This document shows, one piece after another, positions 4,663 through 48,181 of a DNA stretch of 64,000 nt; the stretch's first letter is position 1, and each line of letters begins with the position of its first letter. A model generated the notes under the pieces. The model did no database searches. It was given only the letters and a program-made list of their open reading frames with translations, and was not told the DNA's origin. The stretch comes from Candidatus Omnitrophota bacterium (GTDB taxonomy: Bacteria; Omnitrophota; Gorgyraeia; Duberdicusellales; 4484-171), in assembly GCA_018826075.1 (NCBI GenBank), contig JAHKAJ010000025.1:37608-101607 (forward strand), written 5' to 3'. A program made the position numbers and the translations under genes.

Positions 4663-4739
4663 TGGGGTGGGTGACGAGATTTGAACTCGCGACCACTTGA
4701 GCCACAGTCAAGTGCTCTGCCAACTGAGCTACACCCACC
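4663..4739 (-). tRNA. tRNA-His (GTG)
   Basis: The reverse complement folds as a cloverleaf: GGTGGGTG/TAGCTCAGTTGGCAGAGC/CTTGA-CTGTGGC-TCAAG/.../CACCCACC-CCA. The anticodon loop is CTGTGGC (GTG), with an extra 5' G typical of tRNA-His and an encoded CCA. Confidence 0.85.
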
Positions 4740-4749
4740 AAAAAAAGTA

Positions 4750-5052
4750 TTATTTAGGGTTATTCCTTATTTTTTGGTGGCACCGAGGCTGTAAAGCCGA
4801 GGTGCCTCTATTTATCAACTGAATCTTTTTATCTTTGCTCCAACCTTTGATCTCTGCTTCTCTTTTAAGAACCTCTGATTTAGATAAAAATTCCTCACTA
4901 TATTTTAGCTCTACCGGCCTCCTAAATTTAGTAAACCGGCAACCTTGACCCCGATTGTGTTGTTTAATCCTGTTATCTAAATTATTAGTAATACCTGTAT
5001 ATAACTTTTGATCCTTACACTTGATTATATACAAGTACCACCTTTTGTCCAT
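4750..5052 (-). CDS. GIY-YIG nuclease family protein
   Basis: YLYIIKCKDQKLYTGITNNLDNRIKQHN matches the GIY...YIG motif plus the conserved R/E. 100 aa. It lies between direct repeats of the tRNA-His 5' end. Confidence 0.75.
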   Translation of the reverse strand: MDKRWYLYIIKCKDQKLYTGITNNLDNRIKQHNRGQGCRFTKFRRPVELKYSEEFLSKSEVLKREAEIKGWSKDKKIQLINRGTSALQPRCHQKIRNNPK

Positions 5053-5172
5053 TTTCTAGATCCTTCGCCTTCGGCTCAGGATTAATTCAACTATGTACTT
5101 TTGCAAGTTCGAAAAACGCAGCAAAAGTACAAGTTTCATTAAGCTACACCCACCAAAAAAGCATTATCTATC

Positions 5173-6447
5173 TTAATTTTGCGATTCCGCAGGTTGTTGT
5201 TCTGATGTTTCTTTATTTTTTTTGGGGACAAAGATGCTTTTCAGGGTATCGACTATTTCTTCCCCGCTTTTCTTAAAAACATCAATGGTCTCATCTAGGG
5301 TGAGTTCCTTCCCCTCTTTAAGCTTGTCTCCAATATTTTCCTTAAGGTTATCGGCAACCCCCTGGACCATCAATGAACCAAAAGGAACAACTTCTTTAAG
5401 GCTATCCTTTATTGAAGTTAAGTTTAAATTAGGAGAATCCATTTTAGTCTTAATCACAAAATTAAACACCGGTTTGTCTCCGGGGCCTTTCAAGAAAGAA
5501 AGAATGGTCCGTAAAGTCTTAGTCCGGGAACTCTCCTCCTGACCCTCGGGAACTTCCAGATATTCTATATTTTCTAAAACTAAAGAACTTTCTATGGCCA
5601 GCTCATTTTCCTTAGAGTTAAAATTGCTGTTTAAAGAAAGGCTGGCCTGTTTAATCCCCCAACTCTCCGGCTTCCAAAATGCCGGCCAATAGGAACTAAA
5701 AGCATTGTATCTGATATCCTCCAGACTGACATCCAGATCCATATTTTTATGATAATAATCTACCCAGCCGTTGGCAGACATACTTTCTATAGCGCTGGTT
5801 TCTCCGACCGTAGCAAAACCTTTAGCTTTCAGATAAAATTTTTCCGGATCAGGAAAAGAAAAATTCGTCAACTTTATGTCGACATCTTTGATGATTATTG
5901 GTTTTGCTTCCCGGTTGGTTTTATCTTCAAACTCTATCCGGCTGTTGATCACCCGGATATCTTTTATGGTAACCGGGATTATCTTGACTATCTCGGGTTC
6001 ACCAGCCTCTGCGGCTTTTTTGGAAACAAAATTAGTGGCCGGGCCAGAAGTTGGTTGATTCTCAGATAACTTTTCCTCTAAGCTTCCTTGAGGTTTTCCT
6101 TTTTCAAAAAAAGGCAAAACATGTAAACCTCTCCGGTCGTTTACGATGTTAATTTTCAGGCCGTCAACAATAAGTTTAGCTACAGCTAAACGCCTAAAAG
6201 GATTAAACAAATCTAAGTAAGCATTGGCTTTATCAAACGAGATATCAGCACACTCAAAACCTTTTAACTCTATAGCGAAAGGAAAACTTACCCGTAGCGA
6301 TTCAATTTCTACTTCCTGGCCAAAATTTTTCTCTAAGTTAGCGATTATTATCTCTCTCCCCTTTAGGTTAAGAAAGATAAAAAGAGCTGCATGAAATAAA
6401 ATTATTGCAACTACCAATAAACCCAGAGCAATCAATAATTTTTTCAT
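5173..6447 (-). CDS. membrane-anchored hypothetical protein (AsmA-like architecture)
   Basis: N-terminal TM helix followed by a long beta-rich periplasmic region. The family assignment is tentative. Confidence 0.3.
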   Translation of the reverse strand: MKKLLIALGLLVVAIILFHAALFIFLNLKGREIIIANLEKNFGQEVEIESLRVSFPFAIELKGFECADISFDKANAYLDLFNPFRRLAVAKLIVDGLKINIVNDRRGLHVLPFFEKGKPQGSLEEKLSENQPTSGPATNFVSKKAAEAGEPEIVKIIPVTIKDIRVINSRIEFEDKTNREAKPIIIKDVDIKLTNFSFPDPEKFYLKAKGFATVGETSAIESMSANGWVDYYHKNMDLDVSLEDIRYNAFSSYWPAFWKPESWGIKQASLSLNSNFNSKENELAIESSLVLENIEYLEVPEGQEESSRTKTLRTILSFLKGPGDKPVFNFVIKTKMDSPNLNLTSIKDSLKEVVPFGSLMVQGVADNLKENIGDKLKEGKELTLDETIDVFKKSGEEIVDTLKSIFVPKKNKETSEQQPAESQN

Positions 6448-6497
6448 TTCAGTATTTTTCTCCTTATTCTTCGTTTTTACGATTAAGATAAAACCAC

Positions 6498-6570
6498 GTG
6501 CCCGGCAGGAATCGAACCTGCAACCCTCGGCTTAGAAGGCCGATGCTCTATCCAATTGAGCTACGGGCAC
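6498..6570 (-). tRNA. tRNA-Arg (TCT)
   Basis: Reverse complement GTGCCCGTAGCTCAATTGGATAGAGCATCGGCCTTCTAAGCCGAGGGTTGCAGGTTCGATTCCTGCCGGGCACG. Anticodon loop CTTCTAA. Confidence 0.8.
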
Positions 6571-6574
6571 AATT

Positions 6575-6652
6575 TGGTCGGGGCGACAGGATTCGAACCT
6601 GTGACATCTTGGTCCCAAACCAAGCGCTCTAACCGGACTGAGCCACGCCCCG
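6575..6652 (-). tRNA. tRNA-Pro (TGG)
   Basis: Reverse complement CGGGGCGTGGCTCAGTCCGGTTAGAGCGCTTGGTTTGGGACCAAGATGTCACAGGTTCGAATCCTGTCGCCCCGACCA. Anticodon loop TTTGGGA. CCA is encoded. Confidence 0.8.
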
Positions 6653-6712
6653 AACACAAAGGTAAATTTATTATAACTGGTTTTCTTATAGTGTAAAGGC
6701 GGTTTTGCCTCT

Positions 6713-7492
6713 CTAAAGACAAGCCGAAACGATTTCGACTACCCTTTGGTGAATTTTTTTATTCGAAGCAATATAGCCTATATTTTTATAGGTTAAAGGC
6801 TTTCCTTTTAAATCAGTTAAGCTGCCGCCGGCTTCCTCGATCAGGCATACCCCTCCGGCAAAATCCCAGGGCCGGTCATGAAATTCAACTACAAAATCCA
6901 AAACCCCTTCAGCAACATAGGAAAGATGCCGGGCTGATGAGCCAAGCATCCGAACATTAAAAACTTCCCTGGCTAAATTTCCCAAAGCCGGCAGCATCTG
7001 TTCCGGTGAATAACGAATACTGGAATCAAAGGCGATCGAACAATCCTTTAAAACATCGTTGGCCGAAACAGAAATCTTTCTGCCGTTTTTATAAGCTCCC
7101 TGGCCTTTTTCAGCGCTATACAGCTCATCGTCTTTAGGCATATAGATTATTCCGGCAACAAAATCTTTCTGCTTATGCACCAGTCCGATAGAAACTCCAA
7201 AAATATCGATGTTACGGATAAAATTATGGGTACCGTCTAAAGGGTCAATAATCCAAATATATTCTTTATCTTGGCCACTTGAGCCGCTTTCTTCAGCGAG
7301 AATAGCATGATCGGGAAATCGGGCTTTGATTTTACTGATAATCATCGCTTCAGCTTCCCGGTCCAGATTAGTGGCGAAATCACGATCGCCTTTTTTCTTA
7401 ATCTGGCTTACTTTGCCGAAATTATCCCAGAGAAATTTTCCAGCAACTCTGGCAGCTTCAATACCGACATCAAGAATTTTGCTCACCCTCAC
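6713..7492 (-). CDS. suhB: inositol monophosphatase family protein
   Basis: WIIDPLDGTHNF and the WDxAAG-like region (WDFAGG) match IMPase family motifs. Confidence 0.8.
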   Translation of the reverse strand: MRVSKILDVGIEAARVAGKFLWDNFGKVSQIKKKGDRDFATNLDREAEAMIISKIKARFPDHAILAEESGSSGQDKEYIWIIDPLDGTHNFIRNIDIFGVSIGLVHKQKDFVAGIIYMPKDDELYSAEKGQGAYKNGRKISVSANDVLKDCSIAFDSSIRYSPEQMLPALGNLAREVFNVRMLGSSARHLSYVAEGVLDFVVEFHDRPWDFAGGVCLIEEAGGSLTDLKGKPLTYKNIGYIASNKKIHQRVVEIVSACL

Positions 7493-7950
7493 CTCCGTTT
7501 CTTATAAAATCTTTTTAAACTGCGTTCGGTCTCACGCTTGACAATGTCTTCTTTGATCTTTCTGCGTTTATCCTGAATCTGTTTTCCTTTGGCTAAAGCC
7601 AGTTCTATTTTAGCAATGCCCCGGTCGCTGAAATAGACCTTCAAAGGAACAAGTGTGCAGCCTTTTTGGACAGTCAGGCCGATCAAGCGCTTGATTTCTT
7701 TTTTATGCACCAGCAGCTTTCTTACTCTTTTGGGGTCACTTTTAAAATATGAGCTTTTGGCAAATTCAGGAATATGCATATTGTATAAAAAAAGTTCGTT
7801 GTTTTCAATCCGGCCAAAACTCTCATCAAGAGAACAATTCATGGTGCGTAAGGATTTGACTTCATTGCCTCTCAGGGCGATTCCGGCATCGATGGCCTCA
7901 AGGATGGTATAATCACGCCTGGCTTTTCTATTGGTAGCGACTATCTTCAT
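7489..7950 (-). CDS. smpB: SsrA-binding protein SmpB
   Basis: The N-terminus is conserved in SmpB (IATNRKARRDYTILE..GIALRGNEVKSLR). 153 aa. Confidence 0.9.
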   Translation of the reverse strand: MKIVATNRKARRDYTILEAIDAGIALRGNEVKSLRTMNCSLDESFGRIENNELFLYNMHIPEFAKSSYFKSDPKRVRKLLVHKKEIKRLIGLTVQKGCTLVPLKVYFSDRGIAKIELALAKGKQIQDKRRKIKEDIVKRETERSLKRFYKKRR

Positions 7951-7952
7951 AG

Positions 7953-8903
7953 CTATAAAAAACTAAATCCCAAAACCTGCATTAAACTTAAAAGAAGCGG
8001 GATAGTAATAATGCTTAACAGGTGAGTAAAAAATACCCCCTGGGAAACAAACTCGCTGTCAGCTCCCCGCAGGTTAGCGATGATCGGCAGAGACACTGCC
8101 GACGGCATTGCTGCCTCAAGGACAATAAACACCCCCAGAAGTGAAAACAGCTTAAAATAAACTAAGCCAACCATAAACAAAAGCGGCATCAGCAGCAGCT
8201 TTAAAAGCCCCAGTTCAAAGATCAGCATCAGCTGCTTGGTAAAACCTTCCAGCTTGATCTTAGCCAGCCAACAGCCCAAAATTATCAGCGAAAGGACAAA
8301 ACTGGTATCGCCGACCATCTGCAAAGGGTCTAACAGGGTTTTGGGAATAAACCCAATAGTCTTAGTATAAATAAACAATAAAGCCAAAACTATGCCTAAA
8401 ACCGGCGGCGTAAATAACGACTGAAAACGAAAAGCTTCTTTCTTCTTTCGAAAAATCAGAAAACTGCCCAGGGACCACATGATCACATTATACCCGAGAA
8501 GGTAGAGAAAAATATAGACTAAAAACTTTTCACGCAGGCCGCCGGCCGGAAAAAGAAAAAAAGCTATGCTTATCGGTAAGTATCCTCCATTCTGGAAACT
8601 TATCGCGCTGATAAACTCCTCTTTGAGTTTATGGCTTTTTCCCCAGGAAACGATTAAACCCAAAAAATAGCCGACTAAAAAAATAAGAATGGCGATAAGA
8701 ATAAACACCCAAAGGGAGCTGGATAAAACTATCTGAGAACTGCCGATCAGGCGAGAAAAGATCAAAAAAGGAAAAGTAAAATTTATTACCAAAGCAGTTA
8801 AAACGCCTAAAGCCTGATCGGTAATGACCTTTCGCTTATAAAGGTAAAATCCAAAAAGGGCAATTAATAGAAGTTTAATAACTGTCAAGGATACTGATTG
8901 CAT
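7953..8903 (-). CDS. AEC (auxin efflux carrier) family transporter
   Basis: About 10 TM helices with an N-terminus typical of AEC/malate-permease-like proteins. Start trimmed to ATG at 8903 because the longer ORF overruns tRNA-Ser and tRNA-Leu. Confidence 0.55.
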   Translation of the reverse strand: MQSVSLTVIKLLLIALFGFYLYKRKVITDQALGVLTALVINFTFPFLIFSRLIGSSQIVLSSSLWVFILIAILIFLVGYFLGLIVSWGKSHKLKEEFISAISFQNGGYLPISIAFFLFPAGGLREKFLVYIFLYLLGYNVIMWSLGSFLIFRKKKEAFRFQSLFTPPVLGIVLALLFIYTKTIGFIPKTLLDPLQMVGDTSFVLSLIILGCWLAKIKLEGFTKQLMLIFELGLLKLLLMPLLFMVGLVYFKLFSLLGVFIVLEAAMPSAVSLPIIANLRGADSEFVSQGVFFTHLLSIITIPLLLSLMQVLGFSFL

Positions 8904-8920
8904 ATTAAAATATTGGTTCT

Positions 8921-9016
8921 TGGCGGAGAGGGTGAGATTTGAACTCACGGTCCCGCCATTAAGCAGGACTTCCGATTTCGAATCGGACGCATTCAACCGG
9001 GCTCTGCCACCTCTCC
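8921..9016 (-). tRNA. tRNA-Ser (CGA)
   Basis: Reverse complement GGAGAGGTGGCAGAGCCCGGTTGAATGCGTCCGATTCGAAATCGGAAG + long variable arm + GTTCAAATCTCACCCTCTCCGCCA. Anticodon loop TTCGAAA. Confidence 0.8.
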
Positions 9017-9021
9017 AAAAA

Positions 9022-9104
9022 TGCGGAAGGGGGGACTTGAACCCCCATAGTATTGCTACCACTAGGTCCTGAACCTAGCGCGTCTGCCATTCCGCCACTT
9101 CCGC
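9022..9104 (-). tRNA. tRNA-Leu (CAG)
   Basis: Reverse complement GCGGAAGTGGCGGAATGGCAGACGCGCTAGGTTCAGGACCTAG + long variable arm + GGGGGTTCAAGTCCCCCCTTCCGCA. Anticodon loop TTCAGGA. Confidence 0.8.
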
Positions 9105-11877: not shown

Positions 11878-12552
11878 ATGTTTAAAAATTTGCTTCAATT
11901 CTGGAAAGGGAAAGATTTCTTAAACGAAGTCCTCGAAGAATTTAAAAAGATGCTTGATGACAGCCAGGTGATGTTTGAGGCAGTCTATAAAAAACTTATC
12001 CTTAATCAGGATGAGCCGGGGTTAAAGGACCGGATCTACTCGATCGACAAAAAAGTAAACCAGCTTCAAAAAGACATCCGCAAAAGAATAATCGAACATC
12101 TCTCGATTCAGCCCTCGGTTGATGTGCCGACTTCCCTGCTTCTGATGAGCGTAGTCAAAGATGCTGAACGCCTGGGAGATTATGCCAAAAACCTTCTAGA
12201 AGTAAGCACTTTCCTGGAAAAACCGATCGACAAGCCTAATCATGACGAACTTTTTAATAATATCGAAGGGGAGTTGCTGGAGCTATTCCAACAGACTAAA
12301 AAAGCCTTTATGGAGTCGGACGAAAAAGAAGCAGCTAAAACTTGGGAATACCAAAAAGAAATCAAAAAACGCTGCGATGAGATAATCCGAAAATTAGCCA
12401 AAAGCAGTCTTTCGGTCAATGAAGCGGTATGCTTTACCCTGATCGCCCGTTACTATAAACGCATAGCCTCGCATTTGACTAATATCGCCACTTCAGTGAT
12501 ACTGCCCTTGACTGAACTTGATTATTTTGACGAAAGGCGAAAAGAAGACTAA
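11878..12552 (+). CDS. PhoU-like phosphate transport regulator
   Basis: Alpha-helical 224-aa protein immediately downstream of the Na/Pi cotransporter, the typical pairing. The RBS AAGGAGG precedes the ATG. Confidence 0.6.
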   Translation: MFKNLLQFWKGKDFLNEVLEEFKKMLDDSQVMFEAVYKKLILNQDEPGLKDRIYSIDKKVNQLQKDIRKRIIEHLSIQPSVDVPTSLLLMSVVKDAERLGDYAKNLLEVSTFLEKPIDKPNHDELFNNIEGELLELFQQTKKAFMESDEKEAAKTWEYQKEIKKRCDEIIRKLAKSSLSVNEAVCFTLIARYYKRIASHLTNIATSVILPLTELDYFDERRKED

Positions 12553-12554
12553 TC

Positions 12555-12716
12555 GGGGACAGGTCCCACTAGAATAGCCCTAATGTTTTCAAGTATTTTT
12601 AGGTCTTTTTTCAATTTTCTAAAATCTCCTAAGATTACCTTCTCATTTTCGATTTTCAGAAAAACCAGCAAATAATCCTTTATTTTATTGGGGTGATTTG
12701 ACTGGGACCTGTCCCC
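12555..12716. mobile_element. 162-bp MITE-like element, copy 1 (perfect 13-bp TIR GGGGACAGGTCCC)
   Basis: The left end GGGGACAGGTCCCAC and right end GGGACCTGTCCCC are exact reverse complements. A second 162-bp copy, roughly 70% identical by eye, lies at 45649-45810. Confidence 0.6.
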
Positions 12717-14176
12717 AATAGGTCTTTGCTGAAGATATTATCCAGGCCCAAAAGGCATTGGGGATCAAAATACTTCTTCAAAGCTGCCATTTGGTTGATC
12801 TCATCCTGACTATACATAATCTCTAAATAAGCTTTTTTCAGCTTACCGATTCCGTGTTCAGCTGATACTGTCCCGCCTAAGGAAACTGCCAGGCGGCAAA
12901 GTTCCTTAAGATAGCTTTTAGCCAGCTGACTCTGAGAATTGGTTTGCGGTAAAAAATTAAAATGAAGGTGTGATTCACCGATATGGCCAAAATTAAGATA
13001 ACTTAACTTTGCCTCTTGAGAAACTTTTCGGTAATACTGATGCATCTGCTTAAAATTACTTTCGGGAACAGCGATATCTGCAGCAGCCTTAACCTGTTTG
13101 GCCCGGCGTAAAAACTCATTGATCAGCTGGGGTAATTTATGCCTTATCTGATATACCTTCTCTCGTTCTTTAGCGGTTTCGGCGAAAATAGATTGATCAA
13201 GGAAAGCGCCGCTGGTTTCAATTAAACCCTGCCATTTATCGACTAGCGCGTCATACTCCTCTTTATTTTCTGCTTCCTGTTCAAAATAAACTGTGCCTCC
13301 GGCTTTTGGCATGAAAGAATATTCACGGCGCAAAAGATTTAATGAATTCTGATCTAGAAATTCTAGGGCAGCCGGATTCTGTAGGGGCGCAAAATTTTGC
13401 GCCCCTACTTTAATTCTTTCTGTAAATTGCAGGGCTTCTTCTTCCTGAGGGAAAAACAGCAAACCGTCAAAAACTCCAAAAGGGATATTTTGCAAAGCTA
13501 ATTCCAGGGAGCTGATTATACCCAAAGTCCCTTCGGAACCGATAAAAAGATCGATTAAATCCATATTGTCCCTTACAAAATACCCGGCCTGGGATTTACA
13601 GGCCGGAAGATGATAATCAGGGAGTTTAAAATCAAACTGACGGCCGGCGATCTTAAAGTTAAAAACTCTTTTTTGGGAAAAAATCTCACCCCGCCGCAAA
13701 TGAATTGCTTCTCCGGAAGAAAGGAAAATCTCAACTGCCCTGATGTAATTTCGTATCCCTCCCCAGCCAAAACCATGCACCCCTGAGGCAGCAGTTGAAG
13801 CTACGCCGCCGGCTAAAGCCAAAGGTTCGGTAGGTAAAGATCTTAGCGTTAACTTATGTTTTCTTGCTTCTTTTTCCAAATCTTGAAGCGAAACTCCAGC
13901 TTCTAGCTTAGCAGTTTTAGCCTCGGGATCGATCTGGATATTGTCCTTTAAGCCTTCTAAAGATATGATCGCCCCTTCCTGCGGAACACAACCTCCGGTA
14001 GTCCCGGTTCTTCCGCCCGAAGCAGTAAAAGGGATGTTTTTTTTAGAAAGCTCCCGGATTATCGCTAAAAGTTCTTCCTGATTTTGTGGTATATATAAAG
14101 CTGAAGCCGCCCCCTGACGATTAGAAGTATCCTCTAAGTAAGTAAGCAGATCTTTCTGGTTGGTTTTGGAGATCAT
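12680..14176 (-). CDS. FAD-binding oxidoreductase (GlcD / D-lactate dehydrogenase-like)
   Basis: FAD_binding_4-type glycine-rich motif SGGRTGTTGG. The last 12 codons and the stop are supplied by the MITE-like element. Confidence 0.75.
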   Translation of the reverse strand: MISKTNQKDLLTYLEDTSNRQGAASALYIPQNQEELLAIIRELSKKNIPFTASGGRTGTTGGCVPQEGAIISLEGLKDNIQIDPEAKTAKLEAGVSLQDLEKEARKHKLTLRSLPTEPLALAGGVASTAASGVHGFGWGGIRNYIRAVEIFLSSGEAIHLRRGEIFSQKRVFNFKIAGRQFDFKLPDYHLPACKSQAGYFVRDNMDLIDLFIGSEGTLGIISSLELALQNIPFGVFDGLLFFPQEEEALQFTERIKVGAQNFAPLQNPAALEFLDQNSLNLLRREYSFMPKAGGTVYFEQEAENKEEYDALVDKWQGLIETSGAFLDQSIFAETAKEREKVYQIRHKLPQLINEFLRRAKQVKAAADIAVPESNFKQMHQYYRKVSQEAKLSYLNFGHIGESHLHFNFLPQTNSQSQLAKSYLKELCRLAVSLGGTVSAEHGIGKLKKAYLEIMYSQDEINQMAALKKYFDPQCLLGLDNIFSKDLLGTGPSQITPIK

Positions 14177-15425: not shown

Positions 15426-15845
15426 TTAACTTCCGCCGCAATCCGGACCGCGTAAAGTATGATTCCCGGTACAGTTACCGTCCTGATTATAGATAACCGA
15501 CTGGCCACCATGAGAGGAACTTGAATTTTTAGTAGCCGTAGCTGTGTAGTTATCCGTACCGCTAATAGTAACATTATAATCCCAGTCTTGGTCAAGATCG
15601 ATCTGTTTAAGCTCTACATAATTACCAAGCACAGAGTCAACAGCCCCATCTGCTGCCGCTACATAGGTATCACGTTCGGCCCGGTACATCTTCTCAGCAT
15701 GCGAAATCAAACCTAAAGCAGATTTGGCTTTAGCCACCCTGGCTTTCTCAACCGCGTTAAGAAACTGCGGTATGGCAATAGTAGCCAAAATTCCGATTAC
15801 GATTACTACGATCAAAAGTTCCAAAAGCGTAAAACCCTTTCTCAT
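15426..15845 (-). CDS. type IV pilin
   Basis: MRKGFTLLELLIVVIVIGILATIAIP is a canonical prepilin leader (G|F) with the Glu5 helix. Confidence 0.75.
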   Translation of the reverse strand: MRKGFTLLELLIVVIVIGILATIAIPQFLNAVEKARVAKAKSALGLISHAEKMYRAERDTYVAAADGAVDSVLGNYVELKQIDLDQDWDYNVTISGTDNYTATATKNSSSSHGGQSVIYNQDGNCTGNHTLRGPDCGGS

Positions 15846-15930
15846 TTGAAAACCTCCTTTTCTAAAACGCCCCGTGATTATTCATTATTATACCACTCAG
15901 CCTTTACCTGTCAAAGTTCTTTAAACCCGG

Positions 15931-26719: not shown

Positions 26720-28291
26720 CTACTCTCTAACCATAACCGCAGTCAATAACATGGATTTCACAGTCACCTCCAGATCCGCGCCATTGACTTCGGGTATATA
26801 ATAATGAATTCTTGCGCTATACTTTTTGCCCTGATGAAGCACTCCTAACCCTGTCATTGGATCGAAGGCTTCTATGGCTGCGGCATTGAAGATAGAGAAA
26901 TCTGCGGTAAGGCTCTTTTGATGGATAATGCTTTCAAAAACCGGATCAGCCAGCCCCTCTTGGTAGATTTTTATCATCGTAAAAAAATAGACGTCATTGA
27001 TTGCTGGAAAATTTTTGATATTGCTAATAGTATCCAGCTGCCATTCTATGATCATTGACTGGCCGCTGCGGGCCACAAAGTCAAGCCGGAAACCCGGATG
27101 GGGATTTAAAGGGTCGATAATGGGCGGGTCGATTTCATGAAAACACTGGGCACAACCACCAATACTCTTATCATAAACACAATCCTGGATAGTTTGTTCT
27201 ATCTGCAAACAATCATCGGCAATAATTGTATTGCAAGTTTTGGCAGTGACAGCATCGGCTAAAACCACCGGATCATTCCAATGGGTAAAAAGCTTAATAC
27301 AAGCGCCTCCTTCATCTCCCGGTATCAAAGGATTAGGCTGGGCATAGTCGCAGTCTGCGATCGTTCCAGTTGGTCCAGTTCCACAAGATTCGTGCTTGCA
27401 ACAATATTCGTGTTTACTACAAATTTCAGCAGTATCGGTGTAGGTGCGGCAAGCGTTAATATAGCTACCGTAAACAGGATCAATATCATACTTATAGCAA
27501 GGTGTTGTATTGCTTACCCCTAAAGCAGAATCCTCAGGACAAGGCGTGAGAGCCGGGCCTAAATCATAATAAATATCCTGGGAAGCAGTACTGGGAGTAT
27601 AGTTAGTTAAAACCGGCGTCCCCATAGAGTCAGGGATATCGATCTCAGGCCTGCATCCTCTAACAGTGATATTATCAACCGGCATAAGGTCATTCTCAAG
27701 ACAATACCAGCCGCTGCCGCCTAAAGAATCCGGCACACAATCAGGACTTTGAGGAGTTAAATCCGGGGTAGCATCCGGACAACCTTTTCTTTGACAAGAT
27801 GGTATATTATTAATTTGCCCGGGGTTACAGTTTGTCGATAATGGATCATGAACGCAGACGTCGTCAGGATCTGTAAGACTTGGGCTACAACAATCAACCT
27901 CATTGCAAGTACCACTACTAAAAGCATATTGACCACAATTAAACCCCGCACACTGTGCCTGCGGTGAACCGCTGGTCATATCTACACAACAAGCAGGACA
28001 TTTTGTGTTATATCCGAGACAGTTCTCGCAATCGATTAAACTATTGAATAAGAGGGCATTGGCGATAGGACATACAACTTCGTCCAATACTTTAGGATAA
28101 CCAGCCAGGGGATCGTCCGGATCATTAGTGGTAATACTGGCTATCTTCTCATTAGCCGGAAAGTATTTAAGGTAGGGATTTGGCTCCTCGGCAAAAGCTA
28201 GAAAACCCACCAAAAGAATACAGATTATCAATACTGCTTCCGGCAGTTCTGACTTTCGGTTTTTATTTCTTAGAAAAGACTTTTTTACCAT
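26720..28291 (-). CDS. large cysteine-rich secreted protein (putative pilus-associated adhesin)
   Basis: Likely start MVKKSF... followed by a signal/TM segment. The 520-aa body contains several dozen Cys in CxxC/CC/CxC spacings. It sits between the major pilin and the minor pilins. Confidence 0.5.
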   Translation of the reverse strand: MVKKSFLRNKNRKSELPEAVLIICILLVGFLAFAEEPNPYLKYFPANEKIASITTNDPDDPLAGYPKVLDEVVCPIANALLFNSLIDCENCLGYNTKCPACCVDMTSGSPQAQCAGFNCGQYAFSSGTCNEVDCCSPSLTDPDDVCVHDPLSTNCNPGQINNIPSCQRKGCPDATPDLTPQSPDCVPDSLGGSGWYCLENDLMPVDNITVRGCRPEIDIPDSMGTPVLTNYTPSTASQDIYYDLGPALTPCPEDSALGVSNTTPCYKYDIDPVYGSYINACRTYTDTAEICSKHEYCCKHESCGTGPTGTIADCDYAQPNPLIPGDEGGACIKLFTHWNDPVVLADAVTAKTCNTIIADDCLQIEQTIQDCVYDKSIGGCAQCFHEIDPPIIDPLNPHPGFRLDFVARSGQSMIIEWQLDTISNIKNFPAINDVYFFTMIKIYQEGLADPVFESIIHQKSLTADFSIFNAAAIEAFDPMTGLGVLHQGKKYSARIHYYIPEVNGADLEVTVKSMLLTAVMVRE

Positions 28292-28707
28292 ACTTCGCAC
28301 TCCTTGTTCACCTGGCTTCCTTTCTCGATAACACTCATATTCATTCCGCCGCAAATCCCCTCGCCTCTACGGGTTGCCGTGGCATTAAAACTGCTGCTGG
28401 TATTGGTAATCGAGTAATTAAAATATGAATCGCTGATGTACACTCCTAAGTTACTTTGATTCTCAAGTTCGTCGGCTGTGCAGACAGCTGCTGCACAAGC
28501 ATAGTAATGATTATGGTCGAGTTTATAACGCTTCTGGGAATTATAAATACTGATAAGGGTGTATTCAGCATTTTTGGCTTTGCTTTTTTCGATCGAACTC
28601 TGATAAGAAGGAATAGCCAGAGAAAAAAAGATCCCGATAATGATCAAAGCTACTAAAAGCTCGACCAAAGTAAAAGCTGCCGGTTTATTTTTATTATGCC
28701 CCCCCAT
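28285..28707 (-). CDS. type IV pilin (first gene of second pilin cluster)
   Basis: MGGHNKNKPAAFTLVELLVALIIIGIFF is a prepilin leader plus hydrophobic helix. A sigma70-like TTGAAT-N17-TATAAA lies just upstream. Confidence 0.7.
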   Translation of the reverse strand: MGGHNKNKPAAFTLVELLVALIIIGIFFSLAIPSYQSSIEKSKAKNAEYTLISIYNSQKRYKLDHNHYYACAAAVCTADELENQSNLGVYISDSYFNYSITNTSSSFNATATRRGEGICGGMNMSVIEKGSQVNKECEVW

Positions 28708-32420: not shown

Positions 32421-32457
32421 ATGTCGTTGTAGGGGCGGGTTTGAAACCCGCCCCTAC
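32421..32457 (-). promoter_or_regulatory. conserved GC-rich hairpin element immediately 5' of the gcvPA start
   Basis: ATGTCGTTGTAGGGGCGGG-TTTGAAA-CCCGCCCCTAC: an 11-bp perfect stem ending 10 nt from the gcvPA ATG. Same core as the element before gcvT. Confidence 0.5.
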
Positions 32458-33948: not shown

Positions 33949-33985
33949 ATGTCGTTGTAGGGGCGACCCGGCGGGTCGCCCCTAC
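33949..33985 (-). promoter_or_regulatory. conserved GC-rich hairpin element immediately 5' of the gcvT start
   Basis: ATGTCGTTGTAGGGGCGACCCG...CGGGTCGCCCCTAC: a 13-14-bp stem. On the minus strand the hairpin ends about 6 nt before the ATG. Confidence 0.5.
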
Positions 33986-38836: not shown

Positions 38837-38939
38837 AATCGGGACACATCCCATTTAAATACTCCCCGATTCCATTAAGCTAGCTAGCCCCGATTACCTA
38901 AGCAAGACAAGGGCTTTTTAAATGGGATGTGTCCCGATT
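38837..38939. repeat. 23-bp perfect inverted repeat (AATCGGGACACATCCCATTTAAA / TTTAAATGGGATGTGTCCCGATT) with 57-nt spacer
   Basis: Arms at 38837-38859 and 38917-38939. The spacer contains a duplicated CCCCGATT and the palindrome GCTAGCTAGC. It lies in the divergent permease / rpsU promoter region. Confidence 0.6.
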
Positions 38940-39018: not shown

Positions 39019-39173
39019 TGGCTGAAGTAAAAATTAGCAAAAATGAAGATTTTGAACGGGCTTTAAGAGGCTTCCGGGCTCAATGCAAGAAAGAAGGGAT
39101 CGTTAAAAAATTCAGAGAACGCCAGTACTTTATCAAACCCTCTGAGCGCCGCCGGACCAAGAAGAAAAAATAG
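39019..39173 (+). CDS. rpsU: 30S ribosomal protein S21
   Basis: MAEVKISKNEDFERALRGFRAQCKKEGIVKKFRERQYFIKPSERRRTKKKK. RBS GGAGG is 5 nt upstream. The longer ORF-track start is an artefact of the inverted repeat. Confidence 0.85.
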
Positions 39174-45000: not shown

Positions 45001-45212
45001 ATCCGCTCCTTCATCTCAAAGGTAGCTTTATTGGTAAAAGTAATGGCCAGAATCGAAGCTAAAGGTATTTTTCCCTGGCCAAGGCGGGGATCGATCAACA
45101 GCTTAAGGTATCGTTTAGCCAGGGCAAAGGTTTTTCCTGAACCGGCAGAAGCCTCGACTACCAGGACTTGAGGAAATTTAAGAAGGTTGGGATCGTTGTT
45201 GGCGCCCATCAA
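42069..45212 (-). CDS. addA: ATP-dependent helicase/nuclease AddA (UvrD/RecB family)
   Basis: Walker A EASAGSGKTFAL, UvrD helicase motifs and a C-terminal RecB-type nuclease (VDYKAA). Confidence 0.85.
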   Translation of the reverse strand: MMGANNDPNLLKFPQVLVVEASAGSGKTFALAKRYLKLLIDPRLGQGKIPLASILAITFTNKATFEMKERILELLKRIALDSFSSPKEKQDILELLGLSQEQAKTAARDIVEQIIRHYNFFQVQTIDSFINALLLGSALNIERSASFKIKRDYQSYLTYCLDLLIDQASSDKETLKLFEDFLDHYLFVENRKGWFPKEDILGLMHSLFTLSNKFGGLFKGYPGKSSDIIKAKKKVYSLIEELSSQLPEGMNANTRRGILKFLDKNQDIFDLAQLPQGFSKPGPLMNKGSDYSGDFSKIWQKVHKQLVSLSELDAMVAYNPYIDLFGKLLGFFQVVSKKEDLLFLEELNWKARLLFDNQGFTVAEAYYRLAAHFKHYLIDEFQDTSVLQWRNLEPMIEDALSTGGSLFYVGDKKQAIYRFRGGEVRLFDQIKAEFSRYNVIPAQLTNNWRSQKEIIEFNNQVFSNDNLKLALDCSGISDELSGDINEVIDIFRDAEQKGRPENLWGYVAVERLDEKNQQERNQIIQPKLIALINSLRQRFQAEDIALLARDNSEVELLSSWLLSEGIPVESEKTLNVIENSFIKEIICFLKFLHSPIDDLNFAGFILGEIFSRLSGSSVEEIREFIFEVNPKNRSQDSTYLYRKFSQQYPGVWQEYIQDFYQNVGFISVYELVLSIYSRFDLLKRFSGQQAFLMKFLELIKKSEDECVGMEDFFQYLENASSEDLYVNITHSSSVKVLTIHKSKGLEFPVVIIPFFKIDIKSETGTKGTNSYVCPQGMDNLGLVRITKNHRLFSKKLKAIYLDSYKKACVDELNNIYVALTRPQYELYIFIPKKSGASLNKAAFFIPEKLTESGSQRHYPGLEPDLSQPMIQIRPQTYSDWISLLKQEEANRQELINREKIIEGNLIHALLSRIGNCFKKDPKLIAQAAISGLKGFYPLVKDFSPYLEKLEEFLSRDEFKDIFYLFEGKVFCEKEVVDRYGNLKRVDRLIIKDKEAVIVDYKAAAKNEAEHRRQIKEYLQIFSAIYPEKSLKGFLVYLDDFSLEEVAL

Positions 45213-45248
45213 TCACAAATTGTTTTTAACCGGAGAGGATGGCAAAGA

Positions 45249-45599
45249 TTACGTTGGAAACCGTTCCTGTAACTTTTTAAAATAATAGGCGGAAAATAAC
45301 GATTCTTTTGAAGGCTCAACATCCAGCATCTCGCCGCCGCAAAAATATCCCTGTTCAGGGCCGACAAATTCTGACCAAGCTACCACCAGCTTAAACTGGA
45401 TCGACTCAAGCTCTTCAGGAATAAAATATTCGATAAACAGAACCTGGCCCTTTTTCCACTCGGTATCACTGGAAAAACAGATGCCCATCAGTGAGATATC
45501 TTTGGCTTTACCCTTGTAGATTTTCCCGACTTCGTTTAAGGGGCGAACCTCAACAAAGTCCCCCACGTTTAACCTTATCAGGCGGCGCCGATTATCCAT
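45249..45599 (-). CDS. PilZ domain protein
   Basis: RRRLIRL and DISLMG match the PilZ signatures. 116 aa. Confidence 0.55.
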   Translation of the reverse strand: MDNRRRLIRLNVGDFVEVRPLNEVGKIYKGKAKDISLMGICFSSDTEWKKGQVLFIEYFIPEELESIQFKLVVAWSEFVGPEQGYFCGGEMLDVEPSKESLFSAYYFKKLQERFPT

Positions 45600-45648
45600 A
45601 ATAAATTATTATATCAAAAAAAAGCAAATAAAAAAGGTCGACCTTTTT

Positions 45649-45810
45649 GGGGACAGGTCCCACTTTATAAACCTAATGTTTTCAATGCTTTTCTGACCAT
45701 TTTTTCAAATTCCTGAAATCTTTCTTTTTCCTCTAAGCATTTTTGATTTTTAAAAAATACAGCAAATAGCGTTTGATTTTACTGGGCTAATTTGACCGGG
45801 ACCTGTCCCC
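45649..45810. mobile_element. 162-bp MITE-like element, copy 2 (perfect 13-bp TIR GGGGACAGGTCCC)
   Basis: Same length and termini as copy 1, with internal identity roughly 70% by eye. It is preceded by an 18-bp perfect palindrome AAAAAGGTCGACCTTTTT (45631-45648) and ends 2 nt before the mazG stop codon. Confidence 0.6.
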
Positions 45811-45812
45811 GA

Positions 45813-46487
45813 TTAAAAATAGGTGGATTTTTTGGCCTGCTTTAAGATGGCCCGGCGGGTCCTGGTTTCCAGGTTGATTCCTTTACGATGGGCAATATTA
45901 GCTAAATCAATAACTATACCGCACAATAATTTCTCACTATTTTTACTTTTTTCCAAAGCTTTGACTTTAGCCTTTAAATCAACATAGGGTTTCTGACAGC
46001 TGGTTTTTTTAAAGTTTTCACCCTGCAAATAAGAAAGCTCTTTAAAAAAAATATCGGCTAAAAGTAAAGACGGTGCGGCTTGAGCCAAACGGTCTTTGAT
46101 CGAACGGCGTTTTTTCTGCTTGGCTTTACTGTTGACCCAATGCTTTAAAACTTCCTCTTTGTTGTTAAGCTTTTTTTTGCCAAAAACATGGGGATGGCGA
46201 GAGATCAACTTATGGTTTATGGTTTTAAATACTTCTTTAAGATCAAAGTTTCCTTTCTGGCGAAACATCTCGGTAATAACCACCAGAATCAAAAAAATAT
46301 CGCCCAGCTCCTCCTTGACTGACTTTAGCTGTTTCTTATCAATGGCATCGATAAGCTCATAGACTTCTTCCAGGAGGAAATTCTCCATGTTTTTAATCTT
46401 CTGGGCCCGGTCCCAGGGGCATCCCTTCGGCGAACGCAAAACTCTTACGGTTTTTAGAAGCTGGTTAAATTCTTTCATTTTTAGCAA
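45813..46487 (-). CDS. mazG: MazG-family nucleoside triphosphate pyrophosphohydrolase
   Basis: EEVYELIDAI...ELGDIFLILV is the MazG EExxE/D-rich catalytic helix pair. Confidence 0.8.
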   Translation of the reverse strand: MLKMKEFNQLLKTVRVLRSPKGCPWDRAQKIKNMENFLLEEVYELIDAIDKKQLKSVKEELGDIFLILVVITEMFRQKGNFDLKEVFKTINHKLISRHPHVFGKKKLNNKEEVLKHWVNSKAKQKKRRSIKDRLAQAAPSLLLADIFFKELSYLQGENFKKTSCQKPYVDLKAKVKALEKSKNSEKLLCGIVIDLANIAHRKGINLETRTRRAILKQAKKSTYF

Positions 46488-46518
46488 AGGTCCGGCTGAT
46501 TAGTTTGTTTTATTGCCT

Positions 46519-47076
46519 CTAACAGCCATGATTAATTAGGTAGACAAAGACATCTGAGTCGTAACGAAAAAGGCCTTTGTTTTCCCCGGCAGGATCATTA
46601 CCGTCTATGATTTTGTCTATTTTCTCTCCTAATGCTTGAAACGCAGTCGTACCCATATCCGTATCGGTTATCCGGAAAACTACGTTGACTCCGGTTTCTA
46701 TATCACCACCATCAATAAAGCAATCGCCCTCATTGTCGTATCCGTAGGGTGCACCCCAAGGATTAGGAATCGCGGCTTCAATATAAGGTCCATCCCATCC
46801 AGGTAAGTTAAGTACATTTTGTGCTACATCGGTATTCTCTATAGTCATAAGATTAGATCCGTAATCAGGGTTAGGCGCAGCGCCCTCTGTTGGAAACTTA
46901 CCCACATCAGTATAAAGAGAGAGAAAGGCAGTTCTAATAGTTTTGAAATCGCTCACTATCCGCGAAACCTTCGCCTTTTCAATAGCCTTAAAGGCATTGG
47001 GGGCGATGATAGCGGCAAGAATGGCGATGATAGCGATGACTACGATCAATTCGATTAAAGTAAATGTTTTTTTCAT
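46519..47076 (-). CDS. type IV pilin-like protein (isolated)
   Basis: MKKTFTLIELIVVIAIIAILAAIIAP is a canonical prepilin N-terminus. Start trimmed to 47076. Confidence 0.65.
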   Translation of the reverse strand: MKKTFTLIELIVVIAIIAILAAIIAPNAFKAIEKAKVSRIVSDFKTIRTAFLSLYTDVGKFPTEGAAPNPDYGSNLMTIENTDVAQNVLNLPGWDGPYIEAAIPNPWGAPYGYDNEGDCFIDGGDIETGVNVVFRITDTDMGTTAFQALGEKIDKIIDGNDPAGENKGLFRYDSDVFVYLINHGC

Positions 47077-47168
47077 ATTAATTATTTTACCACATCTAAC
47101 GTCGTGCATAAGTGGCCAAGCGAAAGAGAGGTCCAAGCCGCGAACTCGATGCGCTTGTTAGCCTGTTG

Positions 47169-47426
47169 CTATGGCTCAAGCTCAACTGTTTCGCCTTCGA
47201 TAAATTTCTTTCGGTCATCACCATTTTCTAAATAAAAACAGAATATATCTAAATCAGGGCTACCATCTTTCTTCAATGCCCTTGGTTGCGAAATAGACCT
47301 TTTTATCGGGCACCCCCCGAGAGTCGGGGAATTCCCAAGCTCAATATTATATTCTTCAAGTTGCCTTACAAATATCCCAGTAGGCTTGCCTTCCAATACA
47401 TATTCGACTGTAAATTTGTATTTCAT
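47169..47426 (-). CDS. hypothetical small protein
   Basis: 85 aa with no recognisable motif. Shares an upstream leader motif with its neighbours. Confidence 0.3.
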   Translation of the reverse strand: MKYKFTVEYVLEGKPTGIFVRQLEEYNIELGNSPTLGGCPIKRSISQPRALKKDGSPDLDIFCFYLENGDDRKKFIEGETVELEP

Positions 47427-47568
47427 TTTTTTTATTAAGCTAACACAAAAATCAGCTGTCAGCCGAGCCAGCTATATTCGACAGCGAGGATGGTCGGCTG
47501 GATGGAGTTGCTTTTCTCATTCGTTCAATGCCCAATAGTTAAATTTTCTCACTCAAGAATCAACAGAA

Positions 47569-48096
47569 TCACTTAGTTGAAGAAATAAACTCAAGAGTTT
47601 CAAAACTCTTTTCAACCAAAGGGAGAAGCTGCGCAAATTCTTCTTTACCAGCTGAAAAGGTTACAACGATTTGCTTATTGTTTTTGAAAAATTGTATTTG
47701 CATATCCTTTCCATGCAAATTAGACGATGTAGACTTTATTGCCTCGAATCCGTTAAAATTAATGATTTCTACGGTGAGATATCCTGGCTGTCGCTTCATC
47801 GTTTCAACCATGTCTTTGAGGACGTCTATTTCCTTGCGGCTTGAAAAAATGATATCGTAACCCCCCGTTAAAAATACAAACCCTAAGAATGCTGATGAAT
47901 CAATATTCTCGGGTGAGAAATTAAGAATCGTATCGTGATCAAAATCTATGGTCTTCCATCCCTGCGGTGGAATAAATTTTATAGTTTCCGTGCCCATTAG
48001 GTAAATCCCATCAACAGCGGGTTCTTGCATGCTTTGTGCAAAACAAAAAGTACAAACTATTAAAGACATGAATAGAAAAGTAAAGCTTTTCTTCAT
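47569..48096 (-). CDS. hypothetical secreted protein
   Basis: Signal peptide MKKSFTFLFMSLIVCTFCFA. RBS GGAGGC upstream of ATG 48096. Confidence 0.4.
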   Translation of the reverse strand: MKKSFTFLFMSLIVCTFCFAQSMQEPAVDGIYLMGTETIKFIPPQGWKTIDFDHDTILNFSPENIDSSAFLGFVFLTGGYDIIFSSRKEIDVLKDMVETMKRQPGYLTVEIINFNGFEAIKSTSSNLHGKDMQIQFFKNNKQIVVTFSAGKEEFAQLLPLVEKSFETLEFISSTK

Positions 48097-48181
48097 TAAG
48101 CCTCCTTTTTTTATTTTTTCATCTAACACAAAAATCAGTCGACCGACCAAACGAGAAAGTGCGCTAGGAGTATCAAGTGGA

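What the first reader, a model, noticed from the sequence alone, without database searches (positions are those of the whole stretch)
12555..12716. Two copies of a 162-bp element with perfect 13-bp terminal inverted repeats; candidate MITE or structured ncRNA family
Elements at 12555-12716 and 45649-45810 have identical length and exact termini (GGGGACAGGTCCC / GGGACCTGTCCCC). Their interiors are roughly 70% identical by eye, with shared blocks CCTAATGTTTTCAA, CAGCAAATA and GATTT(T)ACTGGG.TAATTTGAC.GGGACCTGTCCCC. Each TIR is itself a near-palindrome (GGGAC-AG-GTCCC). The element is non-coding but clearly a dispersed family.

Both copies sit exactly at the 3' end of a minus-strand gene. Copy 1 supplies the last 12 codons and the stop codon of the FAD oxidase, and lies 2 nt after the convergent PhoU stop. 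Copy 2 ends 2 nt before the mazG stop. Candidate roles are a miniature transposable element, a REP/BIME-like structured repeat acting as a terminator or mRNA stabiliser, or a small RNA gene.
Basis: seen in the sequence. Interest (0 to 1): 0.7.

Follow-up and report, generated by a model that had tools for sequence, protein, structure and literature searches.

The report
Transposase-linked inverted-repeat doublet, Omnitrophota genome
The two 162-bp sequences are real copies of a small dispersed non-coding repeat whose ends match the signature of repeats that flank a known class of bacterial tyrosine transposase genes, so it is a new example of a known kind of miniature mobile DNA rather than a new type of element.

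Summary
Positions 12555-12716 and 45649-45810 are both 162 bp, share exact 13-bp inverted termini (GGGGACAGGTCCC / GGGACCTGTCCCC) and have 66% identical interiors.

I found at least five more distinct copies (148-163 bp) in contigs of this and related Omnitrophota. Syntenic relatives lack the element, and orthologous FAD oxidases lack the element-encoded tail.

- **No sign of a classical MITE or structured RNA.** There are no target-site duplications, no Rfam match, no terminator or promoter, and no convincing covariation.
- **Termini under constraint.** All 13 ends seen are perfect although interiors are only 61-84% identical.
- **Link to a known class.** The terminus starts with GGGGACAG. 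This fits GGGGWSAS, the published signature of inverted repeats flanking TIRYT genes (RAYT-like HUH tyrosine transposases), which also occur as dispersed singles, dimers and clusters.
- **Direct association.** The exact 13-mer brackets a TIRYT gene in a Blautia contig. Seven of ten plasmid-borne TIRYT genes carry closely related flanking repeats.

Best reading: a REPIN-like doublet of TIRYT sites, made or moved in trans without duplications. It is tolerated at gene 3' ends, where it can replace the stop codon.

No TIRYT gene was found in the roughly 80 kb of this genome I could reach. New member of a known kind; modest interest.

The parts
12555..12716 (.). Copy 1 of the 162-bp doublet. It lies between the convergent PhoU and FAD-oxidase genes, in the position where relatives have a NUDIX gene.
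12555..12567 (+). Left terminal 13-mer GGGGACAGGTCCC of copy 1 (fits GGGGWSAS)
12704..12716 (-). Right terminal 13-mer of copy 1 (GGGGACAGGTCCC on the minus strand)
12680..12718 (-). C-terminal tail L-GTGPSQITPIK and stop codon of the FAD oxidase, read from the right end of copy 1. The junction lies after the conserved ...DLL.
45649..45810 (.). Copy 2 of the 162-bp doublet, between the MazG stop codon and the PilZ-like gene, at a break in gene order relative to relatives.
45649..45661 (+). Left terminal 13-mer of copy 2
45798..45810 (-). Right terminal 13-mer of copy 2. One strain (L048) carries a G-to-A SNP at window position 45803.

Best explanation
Each element is a doublet: two inverted copies of a 13-bp site (GGGGACAGGTCCC) separated by about 136 bp of AT-rich, loosely conserved spacer.

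The site belongs to the GGGGWSAS class of terminal inverted repeats. These flank genes for TIRYTs, which are RAYT-like HUH/Y1 tyrosine transposases of the IS200 superfamily. In some genomes the same repeats also occur dispersed as singles, dimers and clusters.

The element is therefore the TIRYT counterpart of a REPIN. It is a non-autonomous repeat that a TIRYT encoded elsewhere in the genome recognises at the two 13-mers. By analogy with RAYT and IS200/IS605 enzymes, that protein would cut and rejoin single-stranded DNA, which leaves no target-site duplication.

Copies persist where they do little harm. They sit right after, or in place of, stop codons at gene 3' ends, where AT-rich ends supply an early in-frame stop, and they are co-transcribed as a long hairpin.

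**Shown:** family membership, dispersal, presence/absence between relatives, perfect conservation of the termini against diverged interiors, absence of duplications, the motif match, and physical association of the exact 13-mer with a TIRYT gene in Blautia.

**Inferred:** that a TIRYT exists in this genome, that it acts on these sites, and the single-strand mechanism.
For: 1. **A real family.** w1, w2, L006=L027, L033=L038, L031=L037, L028 and L024 form one family (nhmmer E 1e-18 to 1e-48).
2. **Termini constrained.** All 13 termini seen are 13/13 perfect while interiors are 61-84% identical.
3. **No duplications.** No direct duplication flanks any of the 6 complete copies. Flanks are mostly TT|GGGG...CCCC|AA.
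4. **Absent from relatives.** Syntenic relatives lack the element. L039 and L042 have FAD oxidase-NUDIX-PhoU, and L054 and L058 have no element after MazG.
5. **Published signature.** TIRYT genes are flanked by TIRs with consensus GGGGWSAS, and TIRs form dispersed families of singles, dimers and clusters (PMC3733652). The consensus is also given as GGGG[AT][CG]A[CG], for subclass 2.1 Y1 enzymes (PMC6006769). GGGGACAG fits exactly; the chance for a random 8-mer is 1/8192.
6. **Direct association.** In L016 (Blautia) a 267-aa Y1_Tnp protein (Pfam E 1e-16; HVH and RY motifs) has GGGGACAGGTCCC twice upstream, once overlapping its 3' end, and three inverted copies downstream.
7. **Independent replication.** Seven of 10 plasmid-borne homologs are flanked by inverted repeats with cores such as GGGGTCAGACCCC, GGGGTCAGGCCT and GGGGACAGAT.
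8. **Same 13-mer in other phyla.** A scan for the terminal pair hit 17 loci in Bacillota, Actinomycetota and Omnitrophota. There the 13-mer caps local hairpins, lies between housekeeping genes, and occurs as singles, dimers and arrays.
Against: - No Y1_Tnp/TIRYT gene was found in the window or in about 80 kb of this genome. None of the best 120 profile hits is named Omnitrophota.
- As far as the two papers read here report, no experiment shows that TIRYTs move TIRs.
- In this family each 13-mer alone folds weakly as single-stranded DNA (-2.4 and -3.5 kcal/mol, no better than shuffles). Y1 enzymes normally read hairpins.
- Copies are old and diverged, with no near-identical pairs. This is unlike active REPIN populations.
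- There is no clean empty site. Both window copies sit where gene content or order differs from relatives, so simple insertion is not demonstrated.
Confidence: 0.6

Rival explanations
1. A classical MITE: an internally deleted cut-and-paste insertion sequence, mobilised by a DDE transposase that binds the 13-bp terminal inverted repeats.
For: It has perfect TIRs, is under 200 bp, is non-coding, is dispersed, and is absent from relatives. Two contigs break in or beside the element, as repeats often cause.
Against: No target-site duplication flanks any of 6 complete copies. No transposase is in the window or in the flanks of 89 neighbouring ORFs in other phyla. The terminus matches a class tied to HUH, not DDE, enzymes. 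There are no near-identical copies.
Confidence: 0.1
2. The element is kept mainly for a host function at the RNA level. It would be a co-transcribed intercistronic or 3'-end hairpin that stabilises or processes mRNA, whatever its origin.
For: It folds into a long hairpin with z-scores of -3.9 to -6.2. In 5 of 6 copies whose right side could be read, a gene on the same strand ends at or inside the right end; in 5 of 7 the next gene starts within about 50 nt of the left end. An element sits at the same FAD-oxidase codon in a 72%-identical ortholog, which suggests long retention. There is weak excess covariation: 5 double changes against 2.1 in shuffles, reached by 12 of 500 shuffles.
Against: There is no Rfam match. 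The RNAalifold covariation term is about 0 on both strands. The 13-bp stem never covaries, which points to sequence-specific rather than structure-specific constraint. Both strands fold about equally well. No terminator or promoter was found. A strain carries a SNP in one terminus.
Confidence: 0.12
3. An invertible DNA switch. The two 13-mers (half-sites GGGAC/GTCCC around a central AG) would be crossover sites for a site-specific recombinase that flips the 136-bp interior.
For: The inverted sites are perfect. At the same junction (…LL|GGGG) the window copy and the L024 ortholog copy have opposite orientation. Either orientation gives an early stop in the read-in frame.
Against: Seven contigs of the w1 locus and seven of the w2 locus from different samples all show one orientation, as do the duplicate contigs of three other copies. 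There is no conserved promoter inside and no recombinase nearby.
Confidence: 0.06

Closest known systems
TIR repeats of TIRtrons (TIRYT-associated terminal inverted repeats; Di Nocera et al. 2013, PMC3733652; TnpA-Y1 subclass 2.1 of Quentin et al. 2018, PMC6006769)
   Same: The terminus GGGGACAG fits the GGGGWSAS signature. The repeats are dispersed as singles, dimers and clusters. The exact 13-mer brackets a TIRYT gene in Blautia. Related cores flank 7 of 10 plasmid TIRYT genes.
   Different: The cognate TIRYT has not been seen in this genome. This family has a long (about 136 bp) spacer with conserved blocks. The phylum (Omnitrophota) is not among the published examples I read.
REPINs / BIMEs mobilised by RAYTs (Bertels and Rainey 2011, PMC3116915)
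   Same: Two inverted short sites form a hairpin doublet. The elements are extragenic, lack target duplications, and depend on a presumed trans-acting single-copy HUH/Y1 enzyme.
   Different: There is no GTAG/GTGG tetranucleotide next to the site. The site itself is a weak hairpin. Copy number appears low and copies are diverged rather than a cloud of near-identical sequences.
Bacterial MITEs such as Correia elements (Neisseria) and ERIC/IRU (from my own knowledge)
   Same: Elements of 100-170 bp with terminal inverted repeats, near gene ends, co-transcribed as hairpins, sometimes supplying stop codons.
   Different: Correia elements have a TA duplication and known promoter and IHF sites. No duplication or promoter was found here.
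Integron attC sites (from my own knowledge)
   Same: An imperfect palindrome directly after a gene's stop codon, with conserved ends, a variable middle and an orientation bias.
   Different: The ends do not match the RYYYAAC / GTTRRRY core sites. Copies are not arranged in cassette arrays, and no integrase is present.

Membership tests
TIRYT-associated TIR repeats (TIRtron TIRs) | Outer end of the repeat fits GGGGWSAS | tested here: met
   GGGGACAG at all 13 ends seen. Consensus taken from PMC3733652 and PMC6006769.
TIRYT-associated TIR repeats (TIRtron TIRs) | The same repeat flanks, in inverted orientation, a gene for a RAYT-like Y1/HUH transposase | tested here: inconclusive
   Met for the exact 13-mer in a Blautia contig (L016). 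No such gene was found in about 80 kb of the window's own genome, and the rest of that genome could not be searched.
TIRYT-associated TIR repeats (TIRtron TIRs) | Repeat also dispersed in the genome as singles, dimers or clusters | tested here: met
   Dimers at 7 or more loci in Omnitrophota contigs. Singles, dimers and arrays in other phyla.
REPIN / REP (RAYT-dependent) | GTAG or GTGG tetranucleotide 0-2 nt 5' of a stable hairpin | tested here: not met
   The bases before the 13-mer are mostly TT or TC, never GTAG. The local fold is -2.4 and -3.5 kcal/mol, no better than shuffles.
REPIN / REP (RAYT-dependent) | Two inverted sites forming one long hairpin | tested here: met
   Terminal stem of 13-16 bp. 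MFE -45 to -55 kcal/mol, z -3.9 to -6.2.
MITE (DDE transposase-derived) | Terminal inverted repeats, small size, no coding capacity | tested here: met
MITE (DDE transposase-derived) | Direct target-site duplication flanking each copy | tested here: not met
   None at 6 of 6 complete copies. The flanks are inverted (TT...AA), not direct.
MITE (DDE transposase-derived) | Autonomous IS with the same ends | not testable with these tools
None was seen in the loci held.
Rfam structured RNA families | Score at or above a family's gathering threshold | tested here: not met
   Only tRNAs in the window. Weak chance hits to plant miRNA hairpins. Nothing at 13-mer sites in 17 other loci.
Intrinsic terminator | GC-rich stem followed by a T-run | tested here: not met
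   The scan found no terminator-like site in either element. The runs are arranged T-run, stem, A-run on both strands.
Inverton (invertible promoter) | Both orientations present in a population; promoter inside | tested here: not met
   One orientation in all same-strain contigs. No promoter-like site conserved. Reads could not be examined.

The most novel reading that the evidence does not exclude
The 13-mer may be the recognition site of a domesticated TIRYT system that has stayed unchanged across Bacillota, Actinomycetota and Omnitrophota.

On this reading the doublets are not just tolerated junk. They would be retained under selection at orthologous gene ends: the same FAD-oxidase codon in species only 72% identical, yet flipped. 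The enzyme would both invert and relocate them, and they would mark points where gene content is remodelled, such as the NUDIX replacement and the MazG relocation.
Probability: 0.1. Interest if true: 0.6.

Novelty: new member of a known kind. Interest (0 to 1): 0.3.

Why it matters
It extends a little-studied class of bacterial repeats, those tied to TIRYT tyrosine transposases, to an uncultivated phylum.

It shows that one exact 13-bp site is shared by otherwise unrelated repeat families in several phyla. That argues for a very conserved protein-DNA recognition which nobody has tested biochemically.

Practical consequences:
- Such doublets break assemblies.
- They rewrite gene 3' ends. Here they add 11 codons and a new stop to an FAD oxidase.
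- They coincide with gene loss or reordering, so annotators should recognise them.

The finding does not open a new category of element.

Tried and rejected
- **Rfam.** Searched at gathering and at permissive thresholds on the window and on 17 other loci. Nothing relevant.
- **Literature search for the sequence itself.** Only unrelated primer hits.
- **Omnitrophota plus MITE in the literature.** No papers.
- **Phage origin.** 0 and 1 hits in viral contigs.
- **Promoter or terminator role.** No conserved site.
- **Coding potential of the interior.** An in-frame ATG in L006 is lost by frameshift in other copies. I read this from the alignment and the flanking sequences.
- **A shared neighbouring gene in other phyla.** Pfam on 89 flanking ORFs gave only housekeeping families in the 25 shown. 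That ORF set missed the Blautia TIRYT, which tblastn found later.
- **A clean empty site.** Both window loci differ from relatives by more than the element.
- **A TIRYT in Omnitrophota.** The profile search returned more than 7,000 homologs, with no Omnitrophota name among the 120 listed. One Syntrophomonadaceae TIRYT I fetched has a different hairpin, GGGACGGTTC.
- **DNA-uptake sequence.** Rejected. Only four sites in 64 kb, and the site is shared across phyla.
- **Tn3-type ends.** Rejected. No 5-bp duplication and no inner TAAG.
- **attC.** Rejected. The core sites are absent.

Full report
**1. The observation**

Positions 12555-12716 and 45649-45810 are each 162 bp. Each starts with GGGGACAGGTCCC and ends with its exact reverse complement.

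The 13-mer occurs exactly four times in the 64-kb window. With up to two mismatches there are five matches against 0.61 expected, and no shuffle out of 100 reaches five. The interiors lie in the same orientation and are 91/137 = 66% identical.

The gene context is also as stated:
- PhoU (11878-12552, plus strand) stops 2 nt before copy 1.
- The FAD oxidase (12680-14176, minus strand) reads 34 nt into the right end of copy 1 and takes its stop codon there.
- The MazG stop codon (45813-45815, minus strand) lies 2 nt beyond copy 2.

**2. The organism and the family**

The exact FAD-oxidase protein occurs on contigs of MAGs GCA_018829265.1 and GCA_018827675.1 and of several groundwater metagenomes. 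Its named homologs are almost all from Candidatus Omnitrophota.

One metagenome scan with a family-specific pattern, followed by an nhmmer profile, gave these further distinct copies:
- L006=L027, 162 bp
- L033=L038, 163 bp
- L031=L037, 148 bp, with an internal deletion
- L028, 162 bp
- L024, cut by a contig end

L006 comes from the same MAG as a MazG 80% identical to the window's, so it is a related Omnitrophota genome despite its 'Planctomycetia' label.

Interiors are 61-84% identical pairwise, yet all 13 termini seen are 13/13 perfect. With about 18% divergence from the consensus per interior site, 169 unchanged terminal positions cannot be neutral. The termini are constrained as sequence.

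One strain does carry a G-to-A change in the right terminus of copy 2 (window position 45803). The constraint is therefore not absolute on short time scales.

**3. What the element is not**

- **No Rfam family.** Nothing reaches threshold on the window or on 17 loci from other phyla.
- **No clear structured RNA.**
  - The element folds into a long hairpin on either strand (z -3.9 to -6.2). The RNAalifold covariation term is about 0 on both strands.
  - A pair count shows only a weak excess: five double changes against 2.1 ± 1.1 in shuffles, reached by 12 of 500 shuffles. The tool's own notes say this can arise without structure.
  - The 13-bp terminal stem never varies.
- **No promoter or terminator.**
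  - No terminator-like site turned up in either copy. Only one weak promoter-like match touches an element, at 45792-45820 in copy 2, and it is not conserved in the other copies.
  - The flanking runs are T-run, stem, A-run, the reverse of a terminator.
- **No target-site duplication.** None flanks any of six complete copies. The flanks are mostly TT|GGGG...CCCC|AA, that is inverted rather than direct.
- **No transposase or recombinase nearby.** Gene calls covering window positions of about 10.6-64 kb list only housekeeping functions.

**4. Presence and absence in relatives**

FAD-oxidase orthologs are typically 486-488 aa and end ...NIFDKELL plus 0-4 residues. The window protein is 498 aa and reads ...KDLL|GTGPSQITPIK, with the junction after the conserved LL.

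In syntenic relatives with 66% and 62% identical oxidases the order is FAD oxidase-NUDIX-PhoU. In the window the element sits exactly in place of the 129-aa NUDIX gene, from the LL codon to 2 nt from the PhoU stop.

After MazG, relatives at 82% and 80% identity have no element and a different gene order: MazG-PilW-PilZ-UvrD, or MazG-MarR. The window has PilW-MazG-element-PilZ-UvrD.

The element is therefore polymorphic between related genomes. Both window copies coincide with larger differences, so I could not recover a clean empty site.

In L024, whose oxidase is 72% identical, an element joins at the very same codon (...RELL|GTGPALKA*). There the gene enters the opposite end, so that copy is flipped relative to copy 1. 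I cannot tell whether this reflects an old insertion that was later inverted or a second insertion at a preferred site.

**5. Orientation**

In window orientation:
- A minus-strand gene ends at or inside the right end in five of the six copies whose right side could be read.
- The next minus-strand gene starts within about 50 nt of the left end in five of seven copies.
- The two remaining left ends face convergent gene ends.

All three read-in genes use the frame TTG GGG ACA GGT CCC and meet a stop within 9-12 codons. This fits selection for harmless insertions and co-transcription within operons. The numbers are small.

**6. The terminus in other phyla**

A genome-collection scan for the terminal pair found 17 loci. 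They come from Lachnospiraceae, Syntrophomonas, Dethiobacter, Formimonas, Pontibacillus, Propionicimonas, Anaerotardibacter and other Omnitrophota.

Only L006 shares the interior. Elsewhere the 13-mer caps a local hairpin with a lineage-specific stem, for example GCCAC-13mer-GTGGC or ATGTCAA-13mer-TTGACAT. These hairpins occur singly, as inverted pairs, or as arrays of several forward then several reverse units.

As single-stranded DNA these hairpins are stable (-10 to -15 kcal/mol), with the stem GGGG/TCCC closing the loop ACAGG. The window-type ends alone fold weakly (-2.4 and -3.5 kcal/mol).

In the hairpin-forming families the pair next to the motif is often G:T on the motif-forward strand and never A/C; the A/C cases all lie in families without a local stem. 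That hints at strand-specific folding.

The neighbours are housekeeping genes. Sharing an exact 13-mer across phyla cannot be chance.

**7. Identification**

Two papers resolve this.

Di Nocera et al. 2013 (PMC3733652) described TIRYTs. These are RAYT-like tyrosine transposases whose genes ('TIRtrons') are flanked by terminal inverted repeats. Many of those repeats share the motif GGGGWSAS. Some form moderately abundant dispersed families 'organized as REPs in dimers or clusters'.

Quentin et al. 2018 (PMC6006769) place most TIRYTs in TnpA-Y1 subclass 2.1, which has a C-terminal helix-turn-helix, and give the same consensus as GGGG[AT][CG]A[CG].

GGGGACAG fits exactly.

Using TIRYT sequences from the first paper's Additional file 5, tblastn against all loci held found one gene, in L016, a Blautia contig. 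Its features are as follows:
- It encodes a 267-aa protein with a Y1_Tnp domain (Pfam E 1e-16) and the HVH and RY motifs.
- On its strand, GGGGACAGGTCCC lies twice upstream.
- The motif overlaps the gene's 3' end once.
- Three inverted copies lie downstream.

As an independent check I searched plasmid records with this protein and fetched ten hits. Seven are flanked within a few hundred bases by inverted repeats with closely related cores:
- Rhodospirillum rubrum: GGGGTCAGACCCC
- Sporomusa: GGGGTCAGGCCT
- Pseudomonas aeruginosa: GGGGACAGAT...
- Iodobacter: GGGGTCAGAG...
- Legionella and Pseudoalteromonas: GGGTCAGG and GGGTCAGAG
- Acetoanaerobium: GGGACGGTTC

**8. Mechanism and its limits**

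I conclude that the window elements are doublets of a TIRYT-type site, the analogue of REPINs for this branch of HUH/Y1 enzymes.

[quoted passage not shown] IS200/IS605 enzymes act on single strands without making duplications. That matches the lack of duplications here.

What is missing:
- The enzyme in this genome. None lies in the roughly 80 kb I could reach. The profile search returned more than 7,000 homologs with no Omnitrophota name among the 120 listed.
- Any biochemical test of TIRYTs on TIRs.
- Recent, near-identical copies.

For these reasons I put confidence at 0.6. A host RNA-level role (0.12), a DDE-type MITE (0.10) and an invertible switch (0.06) remain as rivals. The first of these is compatible with the main reading as a later co-option.

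**9. Verdict**

The element is a new member of a known, though obscure, kind.

It is of modest interest. The most notable points are the exact cross-phylum conservation of the 13-bp site, the flipped copy at an orthologous codon, and the coincidence with gene loss and reordering.

Noticed in passing
window 13381-13408, 32429-32457, 33957-33985: Three 'double-foot' GTAG-tagged palindromes (GTAGGGGCG...CGCCCCTAC). One lies inside the FAD-oxidase coding sequence; two are intergenic and preceded by ATGTCGTT. GTAGGGGCG occurs 6 times against 0.27 expected. They look like canonical REP sequences, a second HUH-type repeat family in this genome.
   Followed up: partly
window 38837-38939: A 103-bp doublet with perfect 23-bp inverted termini AATCGGGACACATCCCATTTAAA (core GGGACACATCCC, a variant of the 13-mer). 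It is intergenic, about 80 nt upstream of a small plus-strand gene starting at 39020.
   Followed up: no
window 12553-12718 versus L039 11464-11853 and L042 11464-11859: Relatives have a 129-131 aa NUDIX hydrolase gene between the FAD oxidase and the next gene, overlapping the oxidase stop codon. In the window the 162-bp element occupies exactly that space.
   Followed up: yes
window about 45200-48600 versus L054: Gene order differs from an 82%-identical relative. The window has nitroreductase, three small genes, PilW, MazG, element, PilZ, UvrD. The relative has nitroreductase, MazG, PilW, PilZ, UvrD. The element lies at the new MazG|PilZ junction.
   Followed up: partly
L024 (= L046) 1-90: In a species with a 72%-identical FAD oxidase, an element joins at the same codon (...ELL|GGGG) but in the opposite orientation, giving the tail GTGPALKA*. 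The contig ends inside the element.
   Followed up: partly
window 45803 (L048 2797): One strain (ENA contig k141_443622) has GGGGACAAGTCCC, a single SNP in the right terminus of copy 2, among 10 SNPs in 6.35 kb.
   Followed up: yes
window 45631-45648 and 45608-45616: An 18-bp perfect palindrome AAAAAGGTCGACCTTTTT abuts the left end of copy 2. On the minus strand an extended -10-like TGATATAAT lies just upstream of the PilZ-like gene, so that gene may have its own promoter outside the element (read by eye).
   Followed up: no
L008 7178-7328 and L009 1440-1594: Another Omnitrophota MAG carries a different 151-155 bp family with the same 13-bp termini but an unrelated interior. The interior contains CTGATGAGTC, but there is no Rfam hammerhead hit.
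   Followed up: partly
L001 3580-3763, L011 5674-5820, L017 5135-5344: In a Coprococcus MAG the 13-mer hairpins form arrays of about 33-bp units, several forward then several reverse. This gives concentric palindromes whose central hairpin is a compensated variant (TGGA-ACACG-TCCA). How such arrays arise is unexplained.
   Followed up: no
L016 4272-5881: A Blautia TIRtron: a 267-aa Y1_Tnp gene (5213 to 4410, minus strand) whose C-terminus (…TGTGPVD…) is encoded through one copy of the 13-mer, with further copies on both sides.
   Followed up: yes
L068 2900-2945 and 3810-3835: A Syntrophomonadaceae TIRYT gene is flanked by hairpins GTGTCAGAGGGACGGTTCTCTTGACAC. The foot is the same as in some 13-mer hairpins (GTGTCAG...TTGACAC) but the top differs.
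   Followed up: no
window 4666-9104: Five tRNA genes on the minus strand.
   Followed up: no
window 1-64000: 39 of 41 ORFs of 200 aa or more are on the minus strand, and GC skew is negative throughout. This is consistent with one replication arm.
   Followed up: no
window about 28285-28707 (L061 5449-5871) and about 15430-15850 (L018 8332-8751): Two type IV pilin-like genes hit Pfam ComP_DUS, the DNA-uptake-sequence receptor domain; one hit is unmarked and one is weak. I considered the 13-mer as an uptake sequence and rejected that.
   Followed up: partly
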